Source: the human T2T-CHM13v2.0 reference genome, Homo sapiens. From it: 64,000 nucleotides of DNA. Of the stretch, positions 1,355 to 32,337 are shown piece by piece. Both the position numbers and the translations under genes were made by a program. The number at the start of each line of letters is the position of its first letter. Within the stretch, counting starts at the first letter, position 1. The notes beneath the pieces were generated by a model, which searched no databases, was not told where the DNA came from, and was given only the letters and a program-made list of their open reading frames with translations. The DNA is taken from NCBI GenBank assembly GCA_009914755.4, contig CP086569.2, positions 10,464,001 to 10,528,000 of the forward strand, read 5' to 3'.

Positions 1355-1610
1355 CTGCACCAGTGGCCCACGGCTAGCTCCCTCATCTGCACTCCAGCGG
1401 CTCATGGCCAGCTCCCTCACCTGCACCAGTGGCTCTTGGCCGGCTCCCTCCCCTGCACACCAGCGGCTCACGGCCGGCTCCCTCCCCTGCACACCAGTGG
1501 CTCATGGCTCACTCCCTCCCTTGCAAACCAGCAGCTCACGGCCTGCTCCCTCCCCTGCATTCCAGCAGCTCATGACCAGCTCCCTCACCTGCACTCCAGT
1601 GGGTGGCCCA
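1355..1610. repeat. Minisatellite, ~37-bp unit x ~7 (CTGCAC(A)CCAGYGGCTCAYGGCCRGCTCCCTCMC)
   Basis: Tandem imperfect copies read directly; the long P/S/L-rich ORFs 1211-1748 are a consequence of the repeat. Confidence 0.8.
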
Positions 1611-8074: not shown

Positions 8075-8936
8075 ATTATTTTTTAAATTATTATTATTTT
8101 GCCTTAAGTTTTAGGGTACATGTGCACAACGTTCAGGTTTGTTATATATGTATACATGTGTCATGCTGGTGTGCTGCACCCATTAACTCGTCATTTAACA
8201 TTAGGTATATTCTTAATGCTATCCCTCCCCCCTCCCTCCACCCCACAACAATCCCTGGTGTGTGATGTTCCCCTTCCTGTATCCATGTCTTCTCATTGTT
8301 CAATTCCCACCTATGAATGAGAACATGTGGTGTTTTGTTTTTTGTCCTTCAATAGTTTGCTGAGAATGATGGTTTCCAGTTTCATCCATGTCTCTACAAA
8401 GGACATGAACTCATCATTTTTTATGGCTGCATAGTATTCCATGGTGTATATGTGCCACATTTTCTTAATCTCATCTATCATTGTTGGACATCTTTGTTGG
8501 TTCCAAGTCTTTGCTATCGTGAATAGTGCAGCAATAAACATATGTGTGCATGTGTCTTTATAGCAGCATTATTTATAATTGTTTGGGTATATACCCAGTA
8601 ATGGGATGGCTGGGTCAAATGGTATTTCTAGTTCTAGATCCCTGAGGGATTGTCACACCGACTTCCACAGTGGTTGAACTAGATTACAGTCCCACCAACA
8701 ATCTAAAAGTGTTCCTGTTTCCCCACATCCTCTCCAGCACCTGTTTTTTCCTCACTTTTTAATGATCACCATTCTAACTGGTGTGAGATGGTATCTCATT
8801 GTGGTTTTGATTTGGATTCCTCTGATGGCCAGTGATGATATTGTGGTTTTGATTTGCATTTCTCTGATGGCCAGTGATTAGGACCATTTTCTCATGTGTT
8901 TTTTGGCTGCATAAATGTCTTCTTTTGAGAAGTGTC
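8075..8936 (-). mobile_element. L1 (L1PA-like) 3' end: ORF2 C-terminus and 3'UTR, 5'-truncated
   Basis: Reverse complement of the L1 3'UTR (TTAGGGTACATGTGCACAACG...) and ORF2 C-terminal peptides in ORF-track entry 8311..8541. There is an internal ~40-bp tandem duplication at about 8795-8880. Confidence 0.85.
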
Positions 8937-15189: not shown

Positions 15190-21338
<6,149 letters not shown>

Positions 21339-21339
21339 G

Positions 21340-22250
21340 AAGAGTAAATATTTTTTACAAACATATTCAAATGGCCAACAGGTGTGTAGAAAGATGCTAA
21401 ACATTACCATTCATGAGAAAATAGCAAATCAAAAGATACCACTTTACAGCAGTTGGAATGGCGAATATCAAAAAAAAGAAACATGACAAGTGTTAATAAG
21501 GATGTGACAAACTATTTCTGTACAGTCTTAATGAGTTGCAAACTGGAAGAGTCATTGTGAAAATTAGTATGCAGGGTATTTTAAAAAATAGAAGTATCGT
21601 ACAATCCTGAAATTCCACTTCTGTCTATAAACAAAATAAAATCAGCATCTCAAAAATTATCTGCACCCTTGTATCCAATGCAGCATTATTCACAACGGTC
21701 AAGGGTATTTTTTTTTAAACAACTTATCTGTAGCTGCTGAATGGATAAGGAAAATGTGGTATAGACAACTGAATATTATTCACCCATAAAAAAAGAATGA
21801 AATTCTGCTATTTCAACAACATGAAGGACCTGGGTACATTATGCTGTGCAAAATAAGCCAGGCACAGAAAGACAAACATTGTATGTTCTCACTTAAATGG
21901 AGAATTTAAAAATCCTGAACTCATGGAAGCAGAGAGTACAATGGTAATGACAAGGCCTGGAGGTAGAAAAAATGATAAGGTGTTCAGAGTACAAACTTTC
22001 AGTTACAAGATAAATAAGTTTTGGGTGTCTAATGTATAGCTTTAAGATGTAGTTAATAACAGTGTTTTGTATGCTTAAAATTTGCTACTACATTAGGAGA
22101 CCTCAAATGTTCTCACTACAAAAAACATAACCATGTAAGGTGACATAAATATACATCAACTTAATTGTATTAAACATTTTACAATATATATACCTATCAA
22201 ACTTTTATAATATACACAATACATAATTATGCAATTTTTATTGGTCAAAA
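21340..22250 (+). mobile_element. L1M 3' portion (continuation of the host element)
   Basis: ORF2 C-terminal remnants (…MEYYS..IKKNEILLF..HEGPGYIMLCK...SHLNGEFKNPELMEAESTMVMTRPGG) and an AT-rich tail. Confidence 0.6.
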
Positions 22251-22352
22251 AATTAATGTTATGTACACATGCATATATTCACATAAGTGTGTATATACAC
22301 AGATATAAAACATATACATATATATCAATTACATATGTTGTTATGTATATAC

Positions 22353-22400
22353 TTGTGTGTGTGTGTGTGTGTGCGTGTGTGTGTGTGTGTATATATATAT
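22353..22400. repeat. (TG)n / (TA)n microsatellite
   Basis: GTGTGTGTGTGTGTGTGCGTGTGTGTGTGTGTGTATATATATAT. Confidence 0.9.
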
Positions 22401-23504
22401 AAATGACAAAATCCTAGTAGGCTTCAAACTAAACAAGAGAAAATTATAAAATAATTATTAAAAATCAAGAAAAAAATGGGTATTTAATACATGCTCAGCA
22501 ATATTCTAAGTTCTTCAATGGCAAAGTACATGTTTTAAATGTAGAAAGTAGATACATTATACCATATTACAGTTTAGGAATTATGGCACAGAGTGTTTAC
22601 AGTATTAGCCTCAATACATACCAAAAACGTAAAATTTTGAAATAAAATAACATTTGGTTTTCTTTTATGGGGCAGAGGCTTAGTGTTCTGATTAAATTAT
22701 TGAGTATGAATTTCTGTAGAATCATATTTGAAACCTTCACAGGATATGAAATTATAAAGCAGAAAACATAGGACATCTGGATGTGGTGTTTCTGGGATTT
22801 CTAAACCTAATCCCAATATCTCCACTACTCTCACACATTTTAGACAAGACTCAAAATGGAAATTAGAAAATGTTTAACAGAGTTCCTTAAAAATCACAGA
22901 CAGCCCCATGTCCTCAAAAGCAATAAAAGAGCAAGAAGTCAGGTCCTCCAGTCCCTTGTAAGCCATGCAAAGGACTTTGATTTTCTTTGTAACCTAGAAG
23001 AACGACCGTTGAAGGGGAAGTCCAGTCCTAGAAAATTGAAGAGCATGGGGCAGAAGATGTCTGTCTCTAATGAAAGCAAGAGAAAGAAATCAGGGCTTCT
23101 TAGAAAAGATTTCCACTGGAGCATAGCTTCGCAAACCACACTTTTTAAGATCTGGCTTTCTCCTTGACCTTTGGTCACCTCATCTGTGTCATCTGCCTTA
23201 TTCACTCCCACCTATTTGGATATTTGGCTACTATCTCCGGTCTCCTCACACTCTGGGGCTTTTTCTTTTACTCAACGTAGGTGATCAGGTTTAGCTTAGA
23301 GAACAGCCAAGGACTCTGTGTTAGAAAAAGTAATATGACTTATGCTGTGATTTTCCAATTAATACTTAGTACTGTGCTCAGTGGAAAAAAACAGAACATT
23401 ATAAAATAGTCTAAAAATGTAATATCAAATACTATTTCCTCACAGAAACGTTATGATATTTAAAAACTTTTCTAAATTTGTGGGTCCTTAGCTCCACGAC
23501 CCAG

Positions 23505-23640
23505 TGCTGCTGAATCAAAACTTGGTGGTGGTTGGCTGTGCATGGTGACTCACACCGCTGATCACAGCACTTTGGGAGGCCAAGGCAGGCAAATCACTTA
23601 AGCCCAGGAGTTTGAGGCCAGCCTGGGCAACATGGTGAGA
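23505..23640 (+). mobile_element. Alu partial (left arm)
   Basis: GGCTGTGCATGGTGACTCACACCGCTGATCACAGCACTTTGGGAGGCCAAGGCAGG...CAACATGGTGAGACC. Confidence 0.7.
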
Positions 23641-24479
23641 CCTAGTCTACTGGCTGAGGGTGGGGAGGAGGGGGAAAGTTGGTGGTAATGGGAGGTGGTA
23701 ATGCGATTATAAGGTGTGGGCAACCATATTTTGTGCCTCTAAATTTGTGGAGTTACCACTAATCTAAAATTAAGGATACAGATCAGCTGAAGAAAGAAAA
23801 AGATTAATGTCGAGATAAAACTTCCTTGTGGGGGTCCGCAGCTGCAATACCACCAGGCGGCAGCATCCCACCTCTTTCACCCGGCTGCAGCCCCACCAGG
23901 AGCCGGGCTCCAGTCGGGGCGCTGCGGCAGGTACTAGACCCGGAAGGCGAAGGCGCGGATTTCCTGCCCTCCGGGGTGTCTTCCTGCTCCGAGGACCCCA
24001 GGCAATTCAATTCATTCATCAAGCTCCGCCTCATCTGTCCAAGCTGGGGCAGCATGTCCCACAGTCGCCAGCCAAGGCCTCTGCTCCAGAACCCATGGGC
24101 TGCTTTCCTGAGGGGAAGGACATTGTCTTCACCAGCCACAAAAAAATCCGTTCCTTTGCACCCTGTTTCCCATTGCCACCGACTTCGTGTAAACTCTAGT
24201 CCGGAGGACACGAGAGAGACACAGGCCTGGCCCCATGGACATGCTCAGTGCCACGGCTTCCAGCAGTTGGACGGGTGAACTCTACAAATCTCGGGGCCCA
24301 TCGCACCAAGGAGACAGAAAGAAGCAAACAAAGGAAGGACCCTATGAAATGCACCCCCAAAGCAACCAACCAATCCAAGAAAAAAAAAAACACCTCTCAG
24401 GGATCCGTTGGTTTTCCCACGTGGGCGGCCCTGATCCCCTGTTCTAGCCTGGCCCAAGCACCCTCCACCTCACCCCGGC

Positions 24480-24860
24480 CTGCTCAAAGTGTCCTGTCCA
24501 CTTCAGCAGAACCTCCCTCTCCAAGTCTCTGTCTCCCTCGCTCTACAACTCCCTCACCCTCTCCCTTTCTCTACTTCCTCCTTCAGCTTCGGCTCTCTCC
24601 CCCTCCACCTTTCTCTCTCTCCCCCCATTTCTATCTCTCCATCCCGGTCTCCCTAGCTCTCTTTCAAGCTGTGTCTGTGTCTTTTTTCTGTATGTCCTTA
24701 TGTCTGTGTCAGTGTGTCCATGTGTCTGTGTGTGTTTGTGTGTCCGTGTGTGTGTGTCTGAGTGTCCGTCCGTGTGTGTCCGTGTGTGTGCGTGTGTGCC
24801 TGTGCACGTGCACCCGTGTGTATCTGTGTGTGTGTCGAGGTGGGTTTGCTCGTGGTGGTG
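24480..24860. repeat. CT-rich low complexity (24480-24700), then an imperfect GT-rich / GTGTCC repeat (24700-24860)
   Basis: CTCCCTCTCC...TCTCTCTCCCC, then GTGTCCATGTGTCTGTGTGTGTTTGTGTGTCCGTGTGTGTGTG... Confidence 0.7.
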
Positions 24861-25315
24861 GTGTGCTGTGTCTGGGTGTCCGTCAGCCCCTCTTTCCCAG
24901 GATCAGGCTGCCGGGGCTCTAGTGCCAGCGTGGTGCAAAGCAGGGCCTTCCTGTCCCATTGGCCACGGGTGGGTCCTCATCAGGAGAAGCGATGATGGTG
25001 TGGGCATTGTGAGAAAAAGAGCCCGCGGGGCTGGGCTGGCTGTTTGCCCCTAGGCAGCCCTGGCAGCTCTGGGTGTGTGGGGCAAGAGGGGGCCTTGCAG
25101 GAGGGGTGGCGAGGGATCCAAAACAATTTTTCCATGGCAAGGCGGAGGACCAGAGGGGATCCCAGTACTGTGGGCCCCGCACCCTGATGCCTCCGAGCAC
25201 ACCCTGTCCTGAGCCGGCCAGATGTGTTGGAAGCTCAGGAGCTCGCGAGCTGGGGGAAGGCCTGGAGTGTCAGCGAAAGGGAGACCGCCTGGTGGGCCTG
25301 GACCCTGGGCAGGGG

Positions 25316-26868
25316 ACTGAGGCATCATGTCCTGATGACGGATTCCTGTTTCCTGCAACATGGGGAGTCTCCAAAATGGCCTGTTTTGAAACTGGAAAGG
25401 AGACCGAAGACACGATGCTGCTTTTCCACGATTCGCTAGAGGTAACAGTCAACATGGTTACACTTTCGGGGGCCAGAGACACGTGAGCAACAGGCCCCCT
25501 TGCAGAGGGCAAAGGAACATGGAATCCGGAATCATTGTTCACTCGGCTTGAGTGTGACTCCTGTGTGGATGGGAGTATCTGCCTCGCGATCTGTTGCAGG
25601 CTCAGCGTGGGGATATGTCATCTGTGAACCATGTGGATGAAAAACGGACAACCATTCGAGTCTTGGCTCTGCTCTTTGGGGAATTCGCTCATTCCTTGGG
25701 AGGTGGAATTCATCTGAATCGCTCCCTGATGAACTAACCTAGGCTGGCAATCCCGAGGGCCGGTAAGCGCACCGCCAGCCGACACGGCCGTGGGCCCAGC
25801 ACTCAGCCTGCACTGGGCACCCAACATTTTCCCGGATTTCGAGGTCCTGCTGGTCCTGGAGGCAGAAGACCACTTTTCTCTTTGCCTTCCTTTCTCTGTT
25901 TCTTGCTCCTTTTCTCCTTCTGTCCCTCCTTCCCTCTGTTCTTCCTTCTTTCCCTCTCTCCCTCCCTGTCTCCCTCCCTCCCTCTGTTCTTCTCTCCTTC
26001 CCTCTCTCCCTCCATCCATACCTCCCTTTCTCCCTCCTTCCCTCCCTCCCTTCCTCCCTTCCAAGGTCCTCCTTTCATCCGTCCTTTCCTCCCTCTGTCC
26101 CTCTCTCTCACTTTGTCTCCGTTCCTTTCCCCATCTCTGCCTGGCTTTCCTCCAACCTAGAAAGGTCAGAACCACGGTTTGCACGAGATCTCGGGGTCTA
26201 CATTTAGTTGCCGGGCACTCCACGTGATGCCAAGGAGGATGGCGGCGCACGGGTGGGCACGGGAGGGTGGAGCGGGGAGGTAGTGGAGTTGAGCTGCGGA
26301 AAGGAGAAGAGGCCTGGCCACTGCCCAGGCCAGTGTTTCCTGGGGTGGAGGTCTCACCCTACATCACTGAAGAACGCGGGGGCGGGGGGGTGTAAGCCGT
26401 GTGGGAGCAGGGGAAGTGATGAGAGTCCTGCCTGGGCTGGTCCCAAACCCTAGCCGGCCGCCCGCGGACCCACGCATGAGCAGCAGACAGCCCATCTCTG
26501 AGTACCTGGGCTGGCTCTGAAATCCTTGGGATGCTCAGCAAAGAATGACAGACCTCCTTTCTGTGGAGTCTCTCGCCGGACCTGGACTCAGGGATCCTAG
26601 ACAAGTCAGCTGGAAGGGAAGACACAGGTTTCCATACCGAGCCAGAGGTTCACCGCGAAAGAGGGAGCCACCGCCCTGCCCCCACCAGGTCCCAACCCTG
26701 CGTCCTAAAGCTCCTCCAGCTGAGCTCAGTGTTCTTCTAGGCTGAGGAGTGGTTCCAGAAAAGCGGGCTTTTCCAAGTCCTTCAACTCCCCCAGTAGCTC
26801 CGTTGCTAGGAAAGGTTGTGCCTTTTGCTGAAATTCTGGGGTCGACAGAAGCTCATCTAACAGGGTGT
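25316..26868 (+). repeat. Segmental duplicate copy A (~1.55 kb), GC-rich with an internal (CCCT/CTTC)n polypyrimidine tract at 25880-26110
   Basis: Colinear with 29678-31180 from ...GACGGATTCCTGTTTCCTGCAACATGGGGAGTCTCC through CCTGCACTGGGCACCCAACATTTTCC to ...GACAGAAGCTCATCTAACAG. I estimate about 85% identity by eye. Confidence 0.8.
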
Positions 26869-27092
26869 ATGCGAGTACAGATGAAGACTCCAGCTCCTGG
26901 AGCTGTTGGGAGGGTGCCTGGATGGCTTACATCTGCTCCTGACACGCAGAGGCCTCCATGGGCGCGAGCTGCGGAGGTAGATGTGCCTCGGATTCATGTT
27001 CCCACGTGCCCTGGTGACCTGTGGACCCTGGCCGCAGACCCAGTACGGACTCATGTGGGACATGTGAGGCGCAAGCACACCTTGCCCCTGTG

Positions 27093-27270
27093 ACTCAGCC
27101 TGAGTGGCTCAAGTTGTCCCACTGAGTACGCACCCAGAAGGCTGCCATGCTGCTGGTCCTGGTCCCTCTGCCATCTGTTTGACTCAGCCTGAGAGGCCCA
27201 AGCTGTCCCATTGAGCACCCACCCAGAAAGCCACCGTACTACGGGTCCTGGACCTCCTGCCATCTGTTCG
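27093..27270. repeat. Direct tandem duplication, ~88 bp x 2
   Basis: TGACTCAGCCTGAGTGGCTCAAGTTGTCCCACTGAGTACGCACCCAGAAGGCTGCCATG...CCATCTGTT is followed by TGACTCAGCCTGAGAGGCCCAAGCTGTCCCATTGAGCACCCACCCAGAAAGCCACCGTA...CCATCTGTT. Confidence 0.8.
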
Positions 27271-29028
27271 GATGCGGAGGTCACCCAGGTGACTGAGGGT
27301 AGGACAGTGCCACTTCCGAAGGAGCCAGGGCAGCAAACCCAAAATCCCCATGTGCCACGGCAAGTTGGGAGATTCCTTCTGCCTGCAAAGCCTGGCTGGG
27401 CTGCAGCAGAGGGGTGACCTTTGCTGTCTGGCTCACGAAAGCCCCCTGTTCCCCACTCCCTGGCGTGGGTGAAGGCGACCAAGGAGGGAGGGTGACACCC
27501 CCGGTGGGCCACGTTGCACAGGCCGTGTGCGTGTGCAGGTTCCCTGCCACCCTGGCATGGATACCTGGACCTTCGATTATGACATGAAATCTGAATCCTG
27601 GACTCCAAAATGCCGGTCTCTCTGTCCAGTTCGGGTACAGGTTCTGCTCAAAGCATGCTGGCAGGACATCTTTTTCATTCAGGTTACAAATGAGTCTCCT
27701 TCGCCATCCTTGTCCTCAGGCTTCTGCGGGGAATGGGCTGTCAGAAGGTGTCGGGAGAGCCATCGCGAGGGCACCTGGCCAGAATTTCACAGACAGACAT
27801 GGGCAGAGAGAGGCCGGCGGCTCCCGTGTGCCTCAATTGGCCTCTGTGCTTCACGCAGGTCCAGTCAGGAGTCCGACCCCGCCAGTGGCCCTTATAAAGA
27901 CCCACCAGCTTCACCCCCTCAAGAATATGCATGAGCACCCAAGGGCCCTGGGTAATGGCCCTCTGAAGGGTCCAGAAACCACAGACACAGGGCCTTGTGT
28001 GGTAGGTGAAGGTGGGGCCAGATCATCTGGGAAAGGAGGGCTTCTGGGGCTGTCTCCCTGAGTTCTCCAGAATTCTACGGAAACTGGAAGTTTCTCTGTG
28101 GGCTCACACACGATTTCAGGGAGAAACCACCCTGGAAGGGTGTAGTGTGGAACTGAACCTCCATGATAGTCTTGAGTTTTCCAGGCCCTCTCCGTGAAGG
28201 CGGCAATGCCTGTGGGTGTCGCTGTTGCCGTGATAGTCTCACACACGCAGGTGTGTGGATCTCATTCATTTTCTTTTTTTATTTTAACTTTTTATTTCTA
28301 CCTCTTAAAGTCAATGATAAAGTCACAGCTACTTACAGCCATCTAAGAAAGTGGCCTTACTCATGCTCATTCACTCGTTCTGTGGCCTATCAAGAGTCAC
28401 ACGTAACAATGGTTTTCCTTTTTTAAAAAAACCAAATACTTTATACAGTGAACTATAGAAAAAAACAATTCTAAATATACTTTAAAAATTCTAGAGAGTT
28501 AAGGTAACCTCATTTTTTAAAATACTGAAAATGTAAAGGGTCCATATAAAGAGTTGTATTAAGTACATACTTCCTATTTTAATAATTCACTTGCTGTGTT
28601 CTTAAAATCTCTATGAGAGAAGCAGATATTTTATTCATGTCTTTTGGCAAGAGATTCAAAAGCAAAAGTAGAAGGGCTGTAAAATTTCATAAAATTTGTG
28701 GGATTTTTAAAAGCTAAATTATTCAATATTTTGTATGGTTATCACACTCATATATCGCCTGGAATATATATACAGCAACCCAACAACAGTGATTGCAACA
28801 AAAGTAAGATAAATAGGTCTACAAAGCATTTGATTTCCTTATTAGATAAATGAAGTTTTCATAGAGGAAGTGCAAATTCAGATCAGGTTACATAAGCTTA
28901 ACAATTATTCAAACCTTATATAAAATTAAATCTAACCCTCACCACTACAAATCTGTAAGGAATCACTGTCAGGAATCTACAGGACTTGGCTCATATTTAC
29001 ATTGGACACACACTTAGAAATTTCATAA

Positions 29029-29490
29029 ATGATGAGATGCAGGCCAAGGGTATTCCTCAAAGGGCTCCACCCAAAAGGAAAAGAAAGAGAGTTAAACAGA
29101 GAATTACCACACGTATTTGTGGGTAATCAGCTTATTCCTCAGCCTCTAGACAGTGAGGAGGATGAAAAAATGGAAGAAGATAGTAAAGAAGAGGAAGAAA
29201 AAGATCACAGTGAAGCGATGAAGCCAGAGGAGCCACCTCAAAATTTACTGAGAGAAAAAATCATGAAACTGCCCCTCCCTGAATCTTTAAAAGCTTACTT
29301 GACATATTTTAGAGACAAATAACTTAGATCAAGAAGAAAGAATGACTACTGATAATTCCTTTAGTCTTGAAAATGTAGCATTTGTTAGGAATTAAAAGAA
29401 TTATTTATTTCATCAGAGCAAATTATAGTGGAAAAACTATCACTTGTTACTGTCAGTAACATAAATGATGTATTGAGTGAATAAAAGAAT
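29029..29490 (+). other. Unidentified gene-fragment-like sequence: acidic C-terminal ORF (97 aa), stop, ~160-nt 3'UTR-like tail with AATAAA
   Basis: The ORF ends ...EEDEKMEEDSKEEEEKDHSEAMKPEEPPQNLLREKIMKLPLPESLKAYLTYFRDK*. AATAAAAG lies at about 29478. I do not recognise a parent gene. Confidence 0.3.
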
Positions 29491-29677
29491 CCCTTTTATA
29501 AAATCTATTTTTCTTTATATCTTGGAAAATTGTTGTTTCACCTCAGAGTGATTTCAAAGTGGAATGTAACAGTAGTGAAGACTTGTGTGCTATAAATCCT
29601 TTTGTGATTCCTTATGGATCTCGTTCATTTTCATGTAGAAAACAAAGGCGAAACTACAGAGAAAAGAAACGCCTGGT

Positions 29678-31180
29678 GCATCACGGCCTGACGATGGATT
29701 CCTGTTTCCTGCAATATGGGGAGTCTCCACTTATGGCCTGTTTCCCAACAGGAAACTGGAAAGGAAAGTGAAGACACGGTGCTGCTTTTCCACGCTTCTC
29801 TGGAGGTTTCTGTGTCCCCACAGAGCTCGGGAAACAAACAATCAACATGGTCACGCTTTGGGGGCCAGAGACGCATGAGCAACAGGCCCCCTTGCAGAAG
29901 GCAAAGGAATGTGGAACCCAAAACCACGCTTCAGTCGGCCAGAATGTGACTCCTATGTGGACGGGACTATCCACCTCGCGATCCGTTGCAGGCTCAACGT
30001 GGGGCTATCTCATCTGTGAACCATGTGGATGAAAAATGGACAATCACCCGAGTCTCGGCTCATTGCTCTCTGGGCAATTCCCTCATTCCTTGGGAGAGGA
30101 AATTCTTCTGAATCGCTCCCGGATGAAGTAACCCAGGCTGGCGATCCAGAGGGCCAGTGAGAGCCCCACAGGCCGACGCGGCTGTGGGCCGAGCACTTAG
30201 CCTGCACTGGGCACCCAACATTTTCCGGAGTGCGAGATCCTGCTGGTCCTGGAGGCAGAAGACTGCTTTTCTCTCTGCCTTCCTCTCTCTGTTTCTTGCT
30301 CCCTCCCTCCCTCTTTCCCTCCGTCCCTCCCTCAGTTCCTCCCTTCCTCCCTTCCTCCCTCCCTCCGTCCCTGTCTCCTTCCTTCTATCCCTCCATCCTT
30401 TCCAAGGTCCCTCGGTCCATCCGTTCTTTCCTCCCTCCATCGCTCCCTCTCTCTCTGTCTCCGTTCATCTCTCCATCTCTGCGTGAATTCTCTCCCGCAT
30501 AGAAAGGGCAGCACCCCGGCTTGGGCGGGGTCTCTGGTCTGCATTTAGCTGTCAGGCGCTCCACGGTGATGCCGAGGAAGCTAGCGGGGCAAGGGTAGGC
30601 TAGTGACGGTGGGGAGGGGAGGCAGAGGTTTCGAGACACGGAAGGAAGAGCAGGCCTGGCGTCTGCCCGTGCCAGTGTTTCCCGGGATGGAGGTCTCCGC
30701 CCGCCCCACTGAAGAACGAGGTGGGGGGCAAGAGGGAAGGGATGAGAGCTCTACCTAGGCTAGTTAGAAAACCTAGGCTGCTGCCTGCTAACCCGCGCAT
30801 GAGCAGTAGACAGTCCGCCTCCCAGTACCTGGACAGGCCCTGGGATCCCCGGGATGCTCAGAAAAGAATGACAGCCTGCCTCTGAGTGGAGTCCCTCATG
30901 GGACCTGGAACTCAGGGACCCTAGGCAGGTCAGCTGGAAGGGAAGACACGCCTCTCCATATCGAGTGAGAGGTTCACCGCAAAAGAGAGGCCTTCGCACT
31001 GCCCCTACCCCGCCCCAACCCCGCGTCCTAAAGCTCCTCCAGCACAGCCAAGTGTTCTTCCTGGCTGAGGAATGGTTCTAGCGGAGTGGGCTCTTCCACG
31101 TCCTTCAGCTCCCCCAGTGGCGCCGGATCTGGGAAAGGTTGTGCTGCTTTGCCCCAGCCACTTTGACCCAACGTGGAGCT
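29678..31180 (+). repeat. Segmental duplicate copy B (~1.5 kb), with a polypyrimidine tract at 30270-30470
   Basis: See copy A; the two copies sit 4.36 kb apart. Confidence 0.8.
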
Positions 31181-32337
31181 CACAAAAACATGTGTTGTAT
31201 GAAATCAAGGTTTAAGGGATCTAGGGCTGTGCAGGATATGCCTTGTTAACAAAATGTTTACAAGCAGTGTACTTGGTAAAAGTCATTGCCATTCTCTAGT
31301 CTCAACAAACGAGGGGCACAATGCACTGCAGAAAGCCGCAGGGACCTCTGCCCTTGAAAGCAGGGTATTGTCTAAGTTTTCTCCCCATGTGATAGTCTGA
31401 AATATGACCTCGTGGGATGAGAAAGACCTGACTGTCCCCCAGCCCGACACCCGTAAAGGGTCTGTGCTGAGGTGGATTAGTAAAAGAGGAAAGCCTCTTG
31501 CAGTTGAGATAGAGGAAGGCCACTGTCTCTTCGCTGCCCCTGGGAATTGAATGTCTCAGTATAAAACCCGATTGTACATTTGTTCAATTCTGAGATAGGA
31601 GAAACACTGCCCTATTGTGGGAGGTGAGACATGTTTGCAGTAATGCTGGTTTGTTATTCTTTATTCCACTGAGATGTTTGGGTGGAAAGAAACATAAATC
31701 TGGCTTACATGCACGTCCAGTCATAGTACCTTCCCTTGAACTTAATTATGACATAGATTTTTTTGCTCCTGTGTTTTTTGCTGACCTTCTCCTTATTATC
31801 ACCCTGCTCTCCTACTACATTCCCTTTTGCTGAAATAATAAAAATAATAACCAATAAAAACTGAGGGATCTCAGAGGCCGGCGCTGGTTCAGGTCCTTGG
31901 TGTATGCTGAGTGCCAGTCCCCTGGGCCTACTGTTGTTTCTCTATACTTTTTCTCTGTGTCTTAATTCTTTTCTCAGTCTCTCATCCCACCTGACTAGAA
32001 ATACCCACAAGTCGGGAAGGGTAGGCCACCCCTTCACTCACCAGCAAAAAGATTATGACTTGGTAAAGCTCAGATATTCATTAGTATTTTTCAGCAATAA
32101 GGTATTTTAAGTTAAGGTATGTACATAGTTTTTTAGACATAATGTGATTACTAATTAATTAATTAATAATTATTAAATACTCATTAGACTACAACATAGT
32201 TTAAGCATAACTTTTATAAACACTGGGAAACAAAATGTTAATGTGACTAACTTGATTGTAACATTTGCCTTATTGTGGTTGTCTGGAACGAAACCCACAC
32301 TATCTCTGAGTATGCTTGTAGGTTTTTGGTTGTTCTT

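What the first reader, a model, noticed from the sequence alone, without database searches (positions are those of the whole stretch)
25316..31180. 1.5-kb GC-rich block duplicated 4.36 kb apart; candidate homologs of IGS 'long repeats' with butterfly polypyrimidine cores
Copy A (25316-26868) and copy B (29678-31180) are colinear end to end at roughly 85% identity. Each contains a ~200-250-bp (CCCT/CTTC)n core. The intervening 2.8 kb includes an 88-bp tandem duplication, AT-rich sequence and an unidentified gene-fragment-like ORF. An old tandem duplication plus later insertions is the simplest model. Block size and composition recall the LR1/LR2 long repeats of the human rDNA IGS.
Basis: partly seen in the sequence, partly recalled or inferred. 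Interest (0 to 1): 0.55.

Follow-up and report, generated by a model that had tools for sequence, protein, structure and literature searches.

The report
Duplicated 1.5-kb block, not rDNA long repeats
The two 1.5-kb GC-rich blocks are a real, old direct duplication inside a multi-copy primate duplicated region that lies next to a decayed ribosomal-DNA fragment, but they show no detectable relation to the 'long repeats' of the ribosomal spacer, so the finding is ordinary.

Summary
Observation confirmed, main interpretation refuted. Copy A (25317-26821) and copy B (29673-31144) are colinear direct repeats. They are 81% identical over 1431 aligned bases, with 13 indels. Each has a 250-300-bp polypyrimidine core.

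The window does contain rDNA spacer. A decayed rDNA unit fragment runs from 33515 to about 56320 (spacer, CDC27 pseudogene, 5'ETS, 18S, 5.8S, ITS2; no 28S) and is followed by alpha satellite. Published human rDNA primers place spacer position 18 kb at 34263 and 27 kb at 39324. A and B therefore lie upstream of, and outside, the rDNA-derived segment.

I fetched 120 metagenome contigs; nearly all are canonical human rDNA. Together they link 28S to H18, H27 and H32 by exact primer matches. They are colinear with window 33515-44648. They show no similarity to A or B beyond low-complexity CT matches (blastn; nhmmer best E = 1.2). The positional counterparts of the Long/CT region are the (CT)n blocks at 38137-39290 and 41117-42300.

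A and B belong to a multi-copy family with at least three old lineages. Paralogous contigs reproduce the A-spacer-B layout at 88-97% identity.

The "4.36 kb" spacing includes a later 1341-bp retro-insertion carrying the PCMTD1 C-terminus. The original spacing was about 3.0 kb.

The parts
23835..25316 (+). X: flank upstream of copy A. It is shared with A-type paralogues and, rearranged, with C-type paralogues. It contains a CT-rich tract (24440-24660) followed by a GT-rich tract (24661-24850).
   Evidence: blastn to L001 (88.5%), L004, L002 and L126; composition
25317..26821 (+). Copy A of the 1.5-kb block (A-type lineage)
   Evidence: 92% identical to L001, L005 and L004
25860..26160 (+). Imperfect (CCCT/CTTC/CTCC)n polypyrimidine core of A, 87% C+T
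   Evidence: TRF rows 25925-26059; composition
26822..28255 (+). Y: sequence downstream of A. Its first ~630-680 bp also follow B-type and C-type copies in other loci, so it belongs to the duplicated segment.
   Evidence: L127 and L003 continue from the block into Y-like sequence at 74-85%
27091..27268 (+). 89-bp tandem duplication (2 copies, 82% identical). All four paralogous contigs checked have a single copy.
28256..28273 (.). Left target-site duplication, TGGATCTCATTCATTTTC
   Evidence: present once at the uninterrupted site in L003 and L002
28274..29614 (-). 1341-bp AT-rich insertion. It has a T-rich run at its left end, which is an A-rich tail on the minus strand. Paralogues L001 and L005 carry the same insertion with 1.2 kb more between 28327 and 28328.
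28968..29322 (+). PCMTD1-derived coding remnant (about residues 240-358 plus stop codon, with one frameshift near 29105-29123), inside the insertion
   Evidence: PDB 9oma_A matches at E = 1.5e-38 and 1.6e-23; coordinates
29615..29632 (.). Right target-site duplication, TGGATCTCGTTCATTTTC (17 of 18 identical to the left copy)
29633..29672 (+). Short linker preceding B. It is also present in front of C-type copies.
   Evidence: L002 and L003 alignments reach window 29615
29673..31144 (+). Copy B of the 1.5-kb block (B-type lineage). In this window it is cut off at its 3' end.
   Evidence: 94% identical to L127, which continues into Y-like sequence
30254..30500 (+). Polypyrimidine core of B, 84% C+T
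   Evidence: TRF row 30299-30398; composition
31190..32040 (+). 5'-truncated HERV-K-type LTR-like sequence abutting the truncated end of B. It marks the rearrangement that removed B's downstream part.
   Evidence: Read from the sequence and recognised from my memory of the LTR5 consensus. Not tested against a repeat library.
33515..56320 (+). Context only, not part of the duplication: a decayed rDNA unit fragment (spacer from about 0.77 kb upstream of H18, through 5'ETS, 18S and 5.8S, to near the end of ITS2).

Best explanation
A and B are the two copies of an old direct duplication. The duplicated segment was at least 2.1 kb: the 1.5-kb block plus the first ~0.63 kb of the sequence downstream of A. 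It sits inside a multi-copy low-copy-repeat (segmental-duplication) family of a primate genome.

In this window the family lies just upstream of a decayed rDNA fragment, which in turn abuts alpha satellite. That is a pericentromeric or acrocentric type of setting. The blocks are not derived from the canonical rDNA spacer sequence I could sample and show no sign of coding or RNA function.

Inferred order of events:
1. A direct duplication places the two copies ~3.0 kb apart. A-type, B-type and a third C-type lineage are now about 0.17-0.19 substitutions per non-CpG site apart.
2. An L1-type retro-insertion places an RNA antisense to the last coding part of PCMTD1 just upstream of B. It creates an 18-bp target-site duplication.
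3. The whole A-spacer-insert-B block is copied to other loci by segmental duplication. Those paralogues are 88-97% identical.
4. Changes seen only in this window follow: a second 89-bp unit, a 1.2-kb deletion inside the insert, and loss of B's downstream part next to an LTR fragment.

What is shown: the duplication, the paralogues, the insertion with its duplicated target site, and the lack of detectable spacer homology. What is inferred: the mechanism (unequal or non-allelic recombination or replication error, perhaps favoured by the structure-prone polypyrimidine tracts), the order of events, and selective neutrality.
For: Duplication and its metrics.

Multi-copy family: a 100-aa translation across A found 74 ORF clusters in ENA, NCBI and Logan assemblies. 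Most of the contigs fetched come from human-associated metagenomes.

Paralogues with the same layout:
- L001 (7.4 kb) is colinear with window 21246-28327 at 91-93%.
- L005 is colinear with window 25031-30036 at 88-96%, so it reproduces A-Y-insert-B.
- L127 matches the insert plus B at 94% and continues into Y-like sequence.

Three lineages come from pairwise distances.

Insertion: the target site is uninterrupted and single-copy in L003 and L002. The duplicated target site and T-rich end are read.

No protein-family hits were found in the nine ORFs tested from X, A, Y and B.

Not spacer-derived:
- Primer landmarks.
- The canonical contigs are colinear only with window 33515-44648.
- blastn finds only CT low complexity.
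- nhmmer finds nothing in 777 kb of fetched contigs or in the window's own spacer copy.

CpG o/e of 0.46-0.50 is consistent with methylated, unconstrained DNA.
Against: - The family is not named. No repeat or segmental-duplication library was available, so it could be an already catalogued duplicon or composite repeat.
- The species of the window is not established. The 88-97% 'paralogues' could in part be orthologues from human if the window comes from another ape.
- The canonical contigs are short-read assemblies. The H18-to-H27 distance in them is 6.4-6.6 kb rather than the nominal 9 kb. One Butterfly/Long unit is therefore either collapsed or absent, as in a known haplotype with a 4.4-kb deletion.
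- Canonical spacer from about 32 to 43 kb was sampled only through the window's own decayed copy.
- Sequence after the first ~0.65 kb downstream of B-type copies is a different element. A strictly tandem origin with a 3.0-kb unit is therefore not proven.
- The first 89-bp unit is more diverged (73 of 89) than a window-specific duplication should be.
Confidence: 0.8

Rival explanations
1. One reading: A and B are homologues of the LR1/LR2 Long repeats (Butterfly/Long repeat units) of the rDNA intergenic spacer.
For: - The window really does contain rDNA spacer on the same strand.
- The A-to-B spacing of 4356 bp resembles the 4.4-4.5-kb Butterfly/Long unit (PMC8559705; bioRxiv 10.64898/2026.07.27.740875).
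- Both A/B and the Long repeats carry pyrimidine-rich tracts on the rRNA-sense strand.
Against: - A and B lie upstream of the H18 landmark and outside the rDNA-homologous segment, which starts at 33515.
- No blastn or nhmmer similarity to contigs spanning 28S-H18-H27-H32, or to the window's own spacer copy.
- The Long/CT region has clear positional counterparts elsewhere in the window, at about 36-42.3 kb.
- The spacing is 2997 bp once the later insertion is removed.
- The cores are 250-300 bp, whereas the spacer CT microsatellites are kilobases long.
Confidence: 0.03
2. A, B and their flanks are relics of an older, since-replaced part of the spacer. An example would be a terminator-proximal repeat region of an ancestral primate rDNA unit, retained next to this fossil rDNA copy but lost from the modern homogenised array.
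For: - They lie only 2.4 kb upstream of the fossil spacer, in the same orientation.
- They are repeated and GC-rich with a pyrimidine tract, loosely like the R repeats.
- A GGGGTCGACAG motif resembling a Sal box lies just past A, at 26839.
- Spacer repeats differ among primates (PMC6281188).
Against: - There is no 28S remnant anywhere upstream (Rfam at gathering threshold).
- There is no similarity to contigs covering the 28S 3' end, the R repeats and H18.
- The junction at 33515 is an L1 fragment, with two Alus and an LTR fragment lying between B and the spacer copy (the L1 and LTR were recognised from memory).
- Family members were fetched on seven contigs, none of which carries an rDNA primer site.
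- A single SalI-like hexamer is expected by chance in this much GC-rich DNA.
Confidence: 0.05
3. A and B are two independent insertions of a ~1.5-kb interspersed (transposable or retro-) element, not a duplication of local DNA.
For: - The A/B homology has sharp ends in this window, with unrelated flanks on both sides.
- The family is multi-copy with distinct subfamilies.
Against: - The sharp right end is an artefact of B being truncated here. Intact B-type (L127) and C-type (L003) copies run on into Y-like sequence for ~630-680 bp.
- B-type and C-type copies share the same 5' linker.
- I saw no target-site duplications, terminal repeats or poly(A) at the block ends.
- No transposase or RT-like ORFs were found.
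Confidence: 0.06

Closest known systems
Butterfly/Long repeats (LR1, LR2) of the human rDNA intergenic spacer
   Same: - Direct repeats with a kilobase-scale period.
- A pyrimidine-rich tract on the rRNA-sense strand.
- Found in a window that contains rDNA spacer.
   Different: - No detectable sequence similarity.
- Wrong position relative to the H18 and H27 landmarks.
- The spacer units contain kilobase-long (CT)n plus a 320-bp Butterfly box, and are 4.4-4.5 kb long.
- Here the cores are 250-300 bp and the pre-insertion spacing was 3.0 kb.
rDNA-linked and pericentromeric segmental duplications of great-ape chromosomes, including pericentromeric 45S rRNA pseudogenes (bioRxiv 10.64898/2025.12.22.696095; PMC12940165)
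   Same: - Multi-copy blocks of several kb at 88-97% identity.
- Mosaic structure with pseudogene fragments (PCMTD1, CDC27).
- Adjacent to a decayed 45S fragment and to alpha satellite.
   Different: I could not assign the block to a named duplicon or chromosome. Copy number and the species of the window are not determined.
R repeats (terminator repeats downstream of 28S)
   Same: Repeated and GC-rich, with a pyrimidine tract. One Sal-box-like motif lies nearby.
   Different: - No 28S upstream.
- No similarity to contigs that span 28S, the R repeats and H18.
- The unit is 1.5 kb rather than about 0.69 kb.

Membership tests
rDNA IGS Butterfly/Long repeat (LR1/LR2) | Lies in the middle of the spacer, about 20-30 kb from the transcription start, i.e. 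between or around the H18 and H27 landmarks (PMC8559705) | tested here: not met
   H18 primers map to 34263-34388 and H27 primers to 39323-39427. A and B lie at 25317-31144, upstream of H18 and outside the rDNA-homologous segment that begins at 33515.
rDNA IGS Butterfly/Long repeat (LR1/LR2) | Sequence homology to the Long repeat of the canonical human unit | tested here: not met
   - blastn of A and B against 120 contigs fetched with an exact H18F match finds only CT low complexity. Subsets of those contigs carry exact H13, H18R, H27 and H32F sites.
- nhmmer profiles of the unique flanks give a best E of 1.2 in 777 kb of those contigs.
- Caveat: these are short-read contigs holding one, possibly collapsed, Long unit. 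The annotated KY962518 sequence itself was not available.
rDNA IGS Butterfly/Long repeat (LR1/LR2) | Unit built of a Long repeat, a kilobase-scale CT microsatellite and a 320-bp Butterfly box, with a period of about 4.4-4.5 kb | tested here: not met
   - The pyrimidine cores are 301 and 247 bp. The canonical contig has (CT)n of 2.6 and 1.5 kb.
- The 4356-bp spacing falls to 2997 bp without the later insertion.
R repeats (rDNA terminator repeats) | Directly downstream of the 28S/3'ETS, with homology to the canonical R-repeat region | tested here: not met
   No LSU rRNA hit in the window. No similarity to L043 or L014, which span 28S (Rfam LSU hit, exact H13 primers) through to H18.
Segmental duplication / low-copy repeat | Copies of at least 1 kb at about 90% identity or more at other loci, sharing flanks beyond any single mobile element | tested here: met
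   - L001 matches 6.0 kb at 90.6% plus 1.15 kb at 92.6%.
- L005 matches 1.7 kb at 95.7%, 1.1 kb at 91.8% and 2.2 kb at 87.7%, all colinear.
- L127 matches 2.7 kb at 94.3%.
- Caveat: I assume the contigs and the window come from the same species.
L1-mediated retro-insertion (for the PCMTD1-bearing insert) | Target-site duplication, A-rich tail, and an uninterrupted site in a related sequence | tested here: met
   - 18-bp duplicated target site, 17 of 18 identical.
- T-rich run at the left end, clearer in L001 (TTTATTTTTATTTTTATTTTTTATTTC).
- The site is uninterrupted and single-copy in L003 and L002.
- Not settled: whether the source RNA was spliced. Coding homology stops near residue 240.
Interspersed transposable element | Defined termini shared by all copies, own target-site duplications, element-encoded ORFs | tested here: not met
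   Homology of B-type and C-type copies runs past the A/B right edge. No Pfam hits in the nine ORFs tested from X, A, Y and B. No repeat library was available for a direct test.

The most novel reading that the evidence does not exclude
The block family (X, the 1.5-kb block and Y) could be a fossil of an ancestral primate spacer segment. On this reading it once lay between 28S and the present 17-kb point of the spacer. It was then purged from the modern array by concerted evolution and survives only in duplicated copies around former nucleolar organisers.
Probability: 0.05. Interest if true: 0.45.

Novelty: new member of a known kind. Interest (0 to 1): 0.12.

Why it matters
It matters little in itself. 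The result removes a tempting mis-annotation: a duplicated GC-rich block with a pyrimidine tract, sitting near rDNA spacer, is not thereby a spacer Long repeat.

The context is mildly useful. The window holds a fossil rDNA unit that is about 15% diverged from the array copies at the H18 region. It retains the ape-specific CDC27 pseudogene and abuts alpha satellite. Fossils of this kind are already reported as markers of former acrocentric arms or nucleolar organisers. This one gives an outgroup-like snapshot of the spacer, with shorter (CT)n blocks than the modern unit.

Tried and rejected
- Direct alignment to U13369 or KY962518 was impossible because no copy is held. I replaced it with published primer landmarks (PMC5784149, PMC12642670) and with canonical rDNA contigs fished from metagenomes by an exact H18F scan.
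- Supplementary primer tables of PMC4027186 are not held.
- My first reading of the AT-rich block as a plus-strand processed pseudogene was wrong. The tail is on the minus strand and coding homology stops near residue 240.
- A first fuzzy-regex primer search timed out.
- A first blast mixed up L001 and L002 because both sit in one file (corrected).
- Self-comparison of canonical contig L029 did not reveal a clean LR1/LR2 pair, only Alu and CT matches. I could therefore not delimit the Long repeat itself, only its region.
- Among the contigs examined individually, L063 and L038 share only the 21-mer with rDNA, and L094 is inverted or chimeric. I discounted these as evidence, although they remained in the blastn and nhmmer target set.
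- Dating with a genome-average clock gives about 75-90 Myr from the non-CpG distance of 0.18. I rejected this as unreliable. The fossil spacer, which must post-date the ape-specific CDC27 insertion, shows a similar distance from the array copies.
- A literature search for PCMTD1 in acrocentric or pericentromeric duplications found nothing.
Full report
**1. What the window is**

The window is Alu-rich primate DNA. Rfam finds, all on the plus strand, a complete 18S at 52384-54231, a 5.8S at 55283-55434 and a mir-663 match at 51509-51598, which lies in the 5'ETS-derived stretch. It finds no 28S.

GC-rich ITS2-like sequence stops near 56320. A 171-bp monomeric alpha-satellite array fills 58145-63176.

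A CDC27 processed pseudogene lies on the minus strand. Residues 1-153 are encoded at 46956-47426 and residues 462-619 at 45570-46046. This pseudogene is a landmark of ape rDNA spacers (PMC6281188).

The 18S is decayed. The published 18S primers H4F and H4R find it only with 3 and 4 mismatches. The promoter and 5'ETS primers find nothing. The window therefore holds a fossil rDNA unit fragment next to satellite DNA, not a live array unit. Pericentromeric 45S pseudogenes of this kind are already described (bioRxiv 10.64898/2025.12.22.696095).

**2. The observation**

A (25317-26821) and B (29673-31144) are colinear direct repeats.
- A re-alignment gives 81.1% identity over 1431 positions, with 115 gap columns in 13 indels.
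- K2P distance is 0.22 and the non-CpG JC distance is 0.18.
- The 5' third is 86% identical and the 3' third 78%.
- The pyrimidine cores (A 25860-26160; B 30254-30500) are 87% and 84% C+T.
- Profile HMMs of the family find only these two copies in the 64 kb.

Its 85% identity is slightly optimistic.

**3. The interval between the copies**

The 89-bp tandem pair is at 27091-27268.

The AT-rich stretch is a discrete insertion at 28274-29614. It is bounded by TGGATCTCATTCATTTTC (28256-28273) and TGGATCTCGTTCATTTTC (29615-29632).
- Contigs L003 and L002 carry related copies in which window 28212-28273 runs straight into 29615 onward, with that 18-mer present once. This is the uninterrupted site.
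- The insertion starts with a T-rich run, which is longer in paralogue L001. That is an A-rich tail on the minus strand.
- On the plus strand the insertion carries the end of PCMTD1. The ORF at 29029-29322 matches PDB 9oma_A residues 274-358 (E = 1.5e-38). An adjacent frame extends the match back to about residue 240.
- I infer an L1-type retro-insertion of an RNA antisense to that part of PCMTD1.

Without the insertion and one copy of the 18-mer, A and B start 2997 bp apart.

**4. Testing the Long-repeat idea by position**

Primers named after their kb position in U13369 are published (PMC5784149, PMC12642670).
- H18F and H18R hit the window at 34263 and 34368 with one mismatch each.
- H27F and H27R hit at 39323 and 39406 with 4 and 2 mismatches.

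[quoted passage not shown] A and B lie upstream of the 18-kb landmark.

**5. Testing it by sequence**

An exact-match scan of metagenome contigs with H18F returned 120 contigs. Many come from human gut or skin metagenomes.
- 113 also carry exact H18R.
- 24-26 carry exact H27 primers.
- L014 and L043 carry both exact H13 primers.
- L043 also contains the 28S 3' end by Rfam.
- L029 reaches H32F.

These contigs are canonical rDNA spanning 28S to about 32 kb.

They are colinear with the window only from 33515. L029 1-5659 matches 33694-39293 and L029 7349-12608 matches 39638-44648, at 80-83%. L043, L088, L094 and L108 all begin to match at 33515.

At that point the canonical unit has an Alu upstream. 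The window instead has what I recognise from memory as an old L1 3' fragment.

The canonical (CT)n blocks (L029 4457-7080 and 8896-10400) correspond to window 38137-39290 and 41117-42300. The positional counterparts of the Long/CT region are therefore in the window, but at about 36-42 kb.

A, B and their flanks hit none of the 120 contigs except through the pyrimidine core against (CT)n, at about 70% identity over 100-250 bp. nhmmer with maximum sensitivity, using profiles of the unique 5' and 3' parts of the block, recovers A and B at E ~1e-190 to 1e-215. It finds nothing better than E = 1.2 in 777 kb of fetched contigs, in window 33515-56500, or in window 1-21000.

Caveats:
- The H18-to-H27 distance in the contigs is 6.4-6.6 kb. 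One Long unit is therefore collapsed or absent. A haplotype with a 4.4-kb deletion in the Long-repeat region is known (bioRxiv 10.64898/2026.07.27.740875).
- At least one unit is nevertheless represented in the contigs.
- Canonical spacer from about 32 to 43 kb was sampled only through the window's own copy.

**6. What A and B are**

A 100-aa translation across A found 74 ORF clusters in public assemblies, the best at 84-85% identity. I fetched seven contigs.
- L001 is colinear with window 21246-28327 (91-93%) and has a single 89-bp unit.
- L005 is colinear with 25031-30036 (88-96%), so it reproduces A, Y, the insert and the start of B. It has 1.2 kb more inside the insert.
- L127 matches the insert plus B at 94% and then continues into Y-like sequence.
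- L004 and L126 carry X plus an A-type block.
- L002 and L003 carry a third type.

Pairwise distances define three lineages:
- A-type copies are 92-95.5% identical to one another.
- B and the B-type fragment on L005 are 93.4% identical, and L127 matches the insert plus B at 94.3%.
- The two C-type copies are 95.5% identical.
- The three lineages are about 0.16-0.19 apart at non-CpG sites.

B-type and C-type copies are followed by the first ~630-680 bp of Y, and then by a fragment I recognise from memory as Tigger-like. The duplicated segment was therefore at least 2.1 kb. The sharp right end of B in this window is a truncation next to an LTR-like fragment (31190-32040, recognised from memory).

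None of the nine ORFs tested from X, A, Y and B hits Pfam. CpG depletion fits unconstrained, methylated DNA.

**7. Mechanism and age**

The best reading is a neutral direct duplication inside a low-copy repeat, followed by a retro-insertion and then by segmental duplication of the whole block. Long pyrimidine-purine tracts can adopt non-B structures and stall replication, which may have favoured rearrangement. This is inference only.

A genome-average clock would put the A/B split at roughly 75-90 Myr. That figure is not trustworthy. The fossil spacer, which must be younger than the ape-specific CDC27 insertion, is about 15% diverged from array copies at the H18 region. Only the relative order of events is supported.

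**8. Verdict**

The feature is real and ordinary. Interest is low.

Noticed in passing
window 33515-56320: Fossil rDNA unit fragment on the plus strand: spacer from about 0.77 kb upstream of the H18 site, then 5'ETS (mir-663 hit at 51509-51598), 18S (52384-54231), ITS1, 5.8S (55283-55434) and most of ITS2. There is no 28S. It is about 15% diverged from array copies at the H18 region, and the 18S primer sites carry 3-4 mismatches.
   Followed up: partly
window 58145-63176: Monomeric alpha satellite (171-bp units, about 80% identical to one another) starts about 1.8 kb after the end of the rDNA fragment. This points to a pericentromeric setting.
   Followed up: no
window 45570-47426 (minus strand): CDC27 processed pseudogene (residues 1-619, colinear and intronless). 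It is the ape-specific spacer landmark, so the fossil rDNA copy post-dates that insertion.
   Followed up: yes
window 38137-39290 and 41117-42300: Two ~1.15-kb (CT)n-rich blocks, colinear with the 2.6-kb and 1.5-kb (CT)n blocks of canonical spacer contigs. The H27 site lies directly after the first block. These, not A and B, are the window's counterparts of the Long/CT region.
   Followed up: partly
window 27091-27268: Only this window has two 89-bp units; L001, L005, L127 and L003 each have one. Unit 2 matches the single unit of L001 and L005 at 84-85 of 89 positions. Unit 1 matches it at only 74-75 of 89 and shares some bases with B/C-type copies. The duplication may therefore be older than it looks, or unit 1 may have been converted from another paralogue. 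Unexplained.
   Followed up: partly
window 28327/28328; L005 1711-2931; L001 1-290: Relative to paralogues L001 and L005, the window lacks 1.2 kb of AT-rich sequence inside the PCMTD1-bearing insert.
   Followed up: partly
window 47436-48209 (minus strand): A 257-aa ORF with an L1 ORF2-like sequence (recognised from memory) lies between the CDC27 pseudogene and the Alu cluster at 49.3-50.4 kb. The rDNA promoter should be in this region, but no promoter primer site is recognisable.
   Followed up: no
window 32735-34579; locus L123: Contig L123 is 92% identical to the window across the junction between non-rDNA and rDNA sequence at 33515. Canonical contigs are about 85% identical to the window at the H18 region. 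The fossil rDNA copy and its flank therefore have at least one closer paralogue, or an orthologue in another species.
   Followed up: partly
loci L012-L124 (canonical contigs): The H18F-to-H27F distance is 6.4-6.6 kb and the H13F-to-H18F distance is 3.8 kb (4.5 kb in some contigs). Both are shorter than the nominal distances. This fits collapsed or polymorphic R repeats and Butterfly/Long units in short-read assemblies.
   Followed up: partly
loci L063, L038, L094, L045: A few contigs carrying the exact H18F 21-mer are otherwise unrelated to rDNA (L063, L038) or look inverted or chimeric upstream (L094, L045). I set these aside as evidence, though they remained in the search targets.
   Followed up: partly
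window 1358-1599: A 34-bp tandem repeat, 7 copies, GC-rich.
   Followed up: no
window 8088-8936 and 15193-16001: An 850-bp direct repeat at 86% identity in an AT-skewed region. It is probably two fragments of the same LINE.
   Followed up: no
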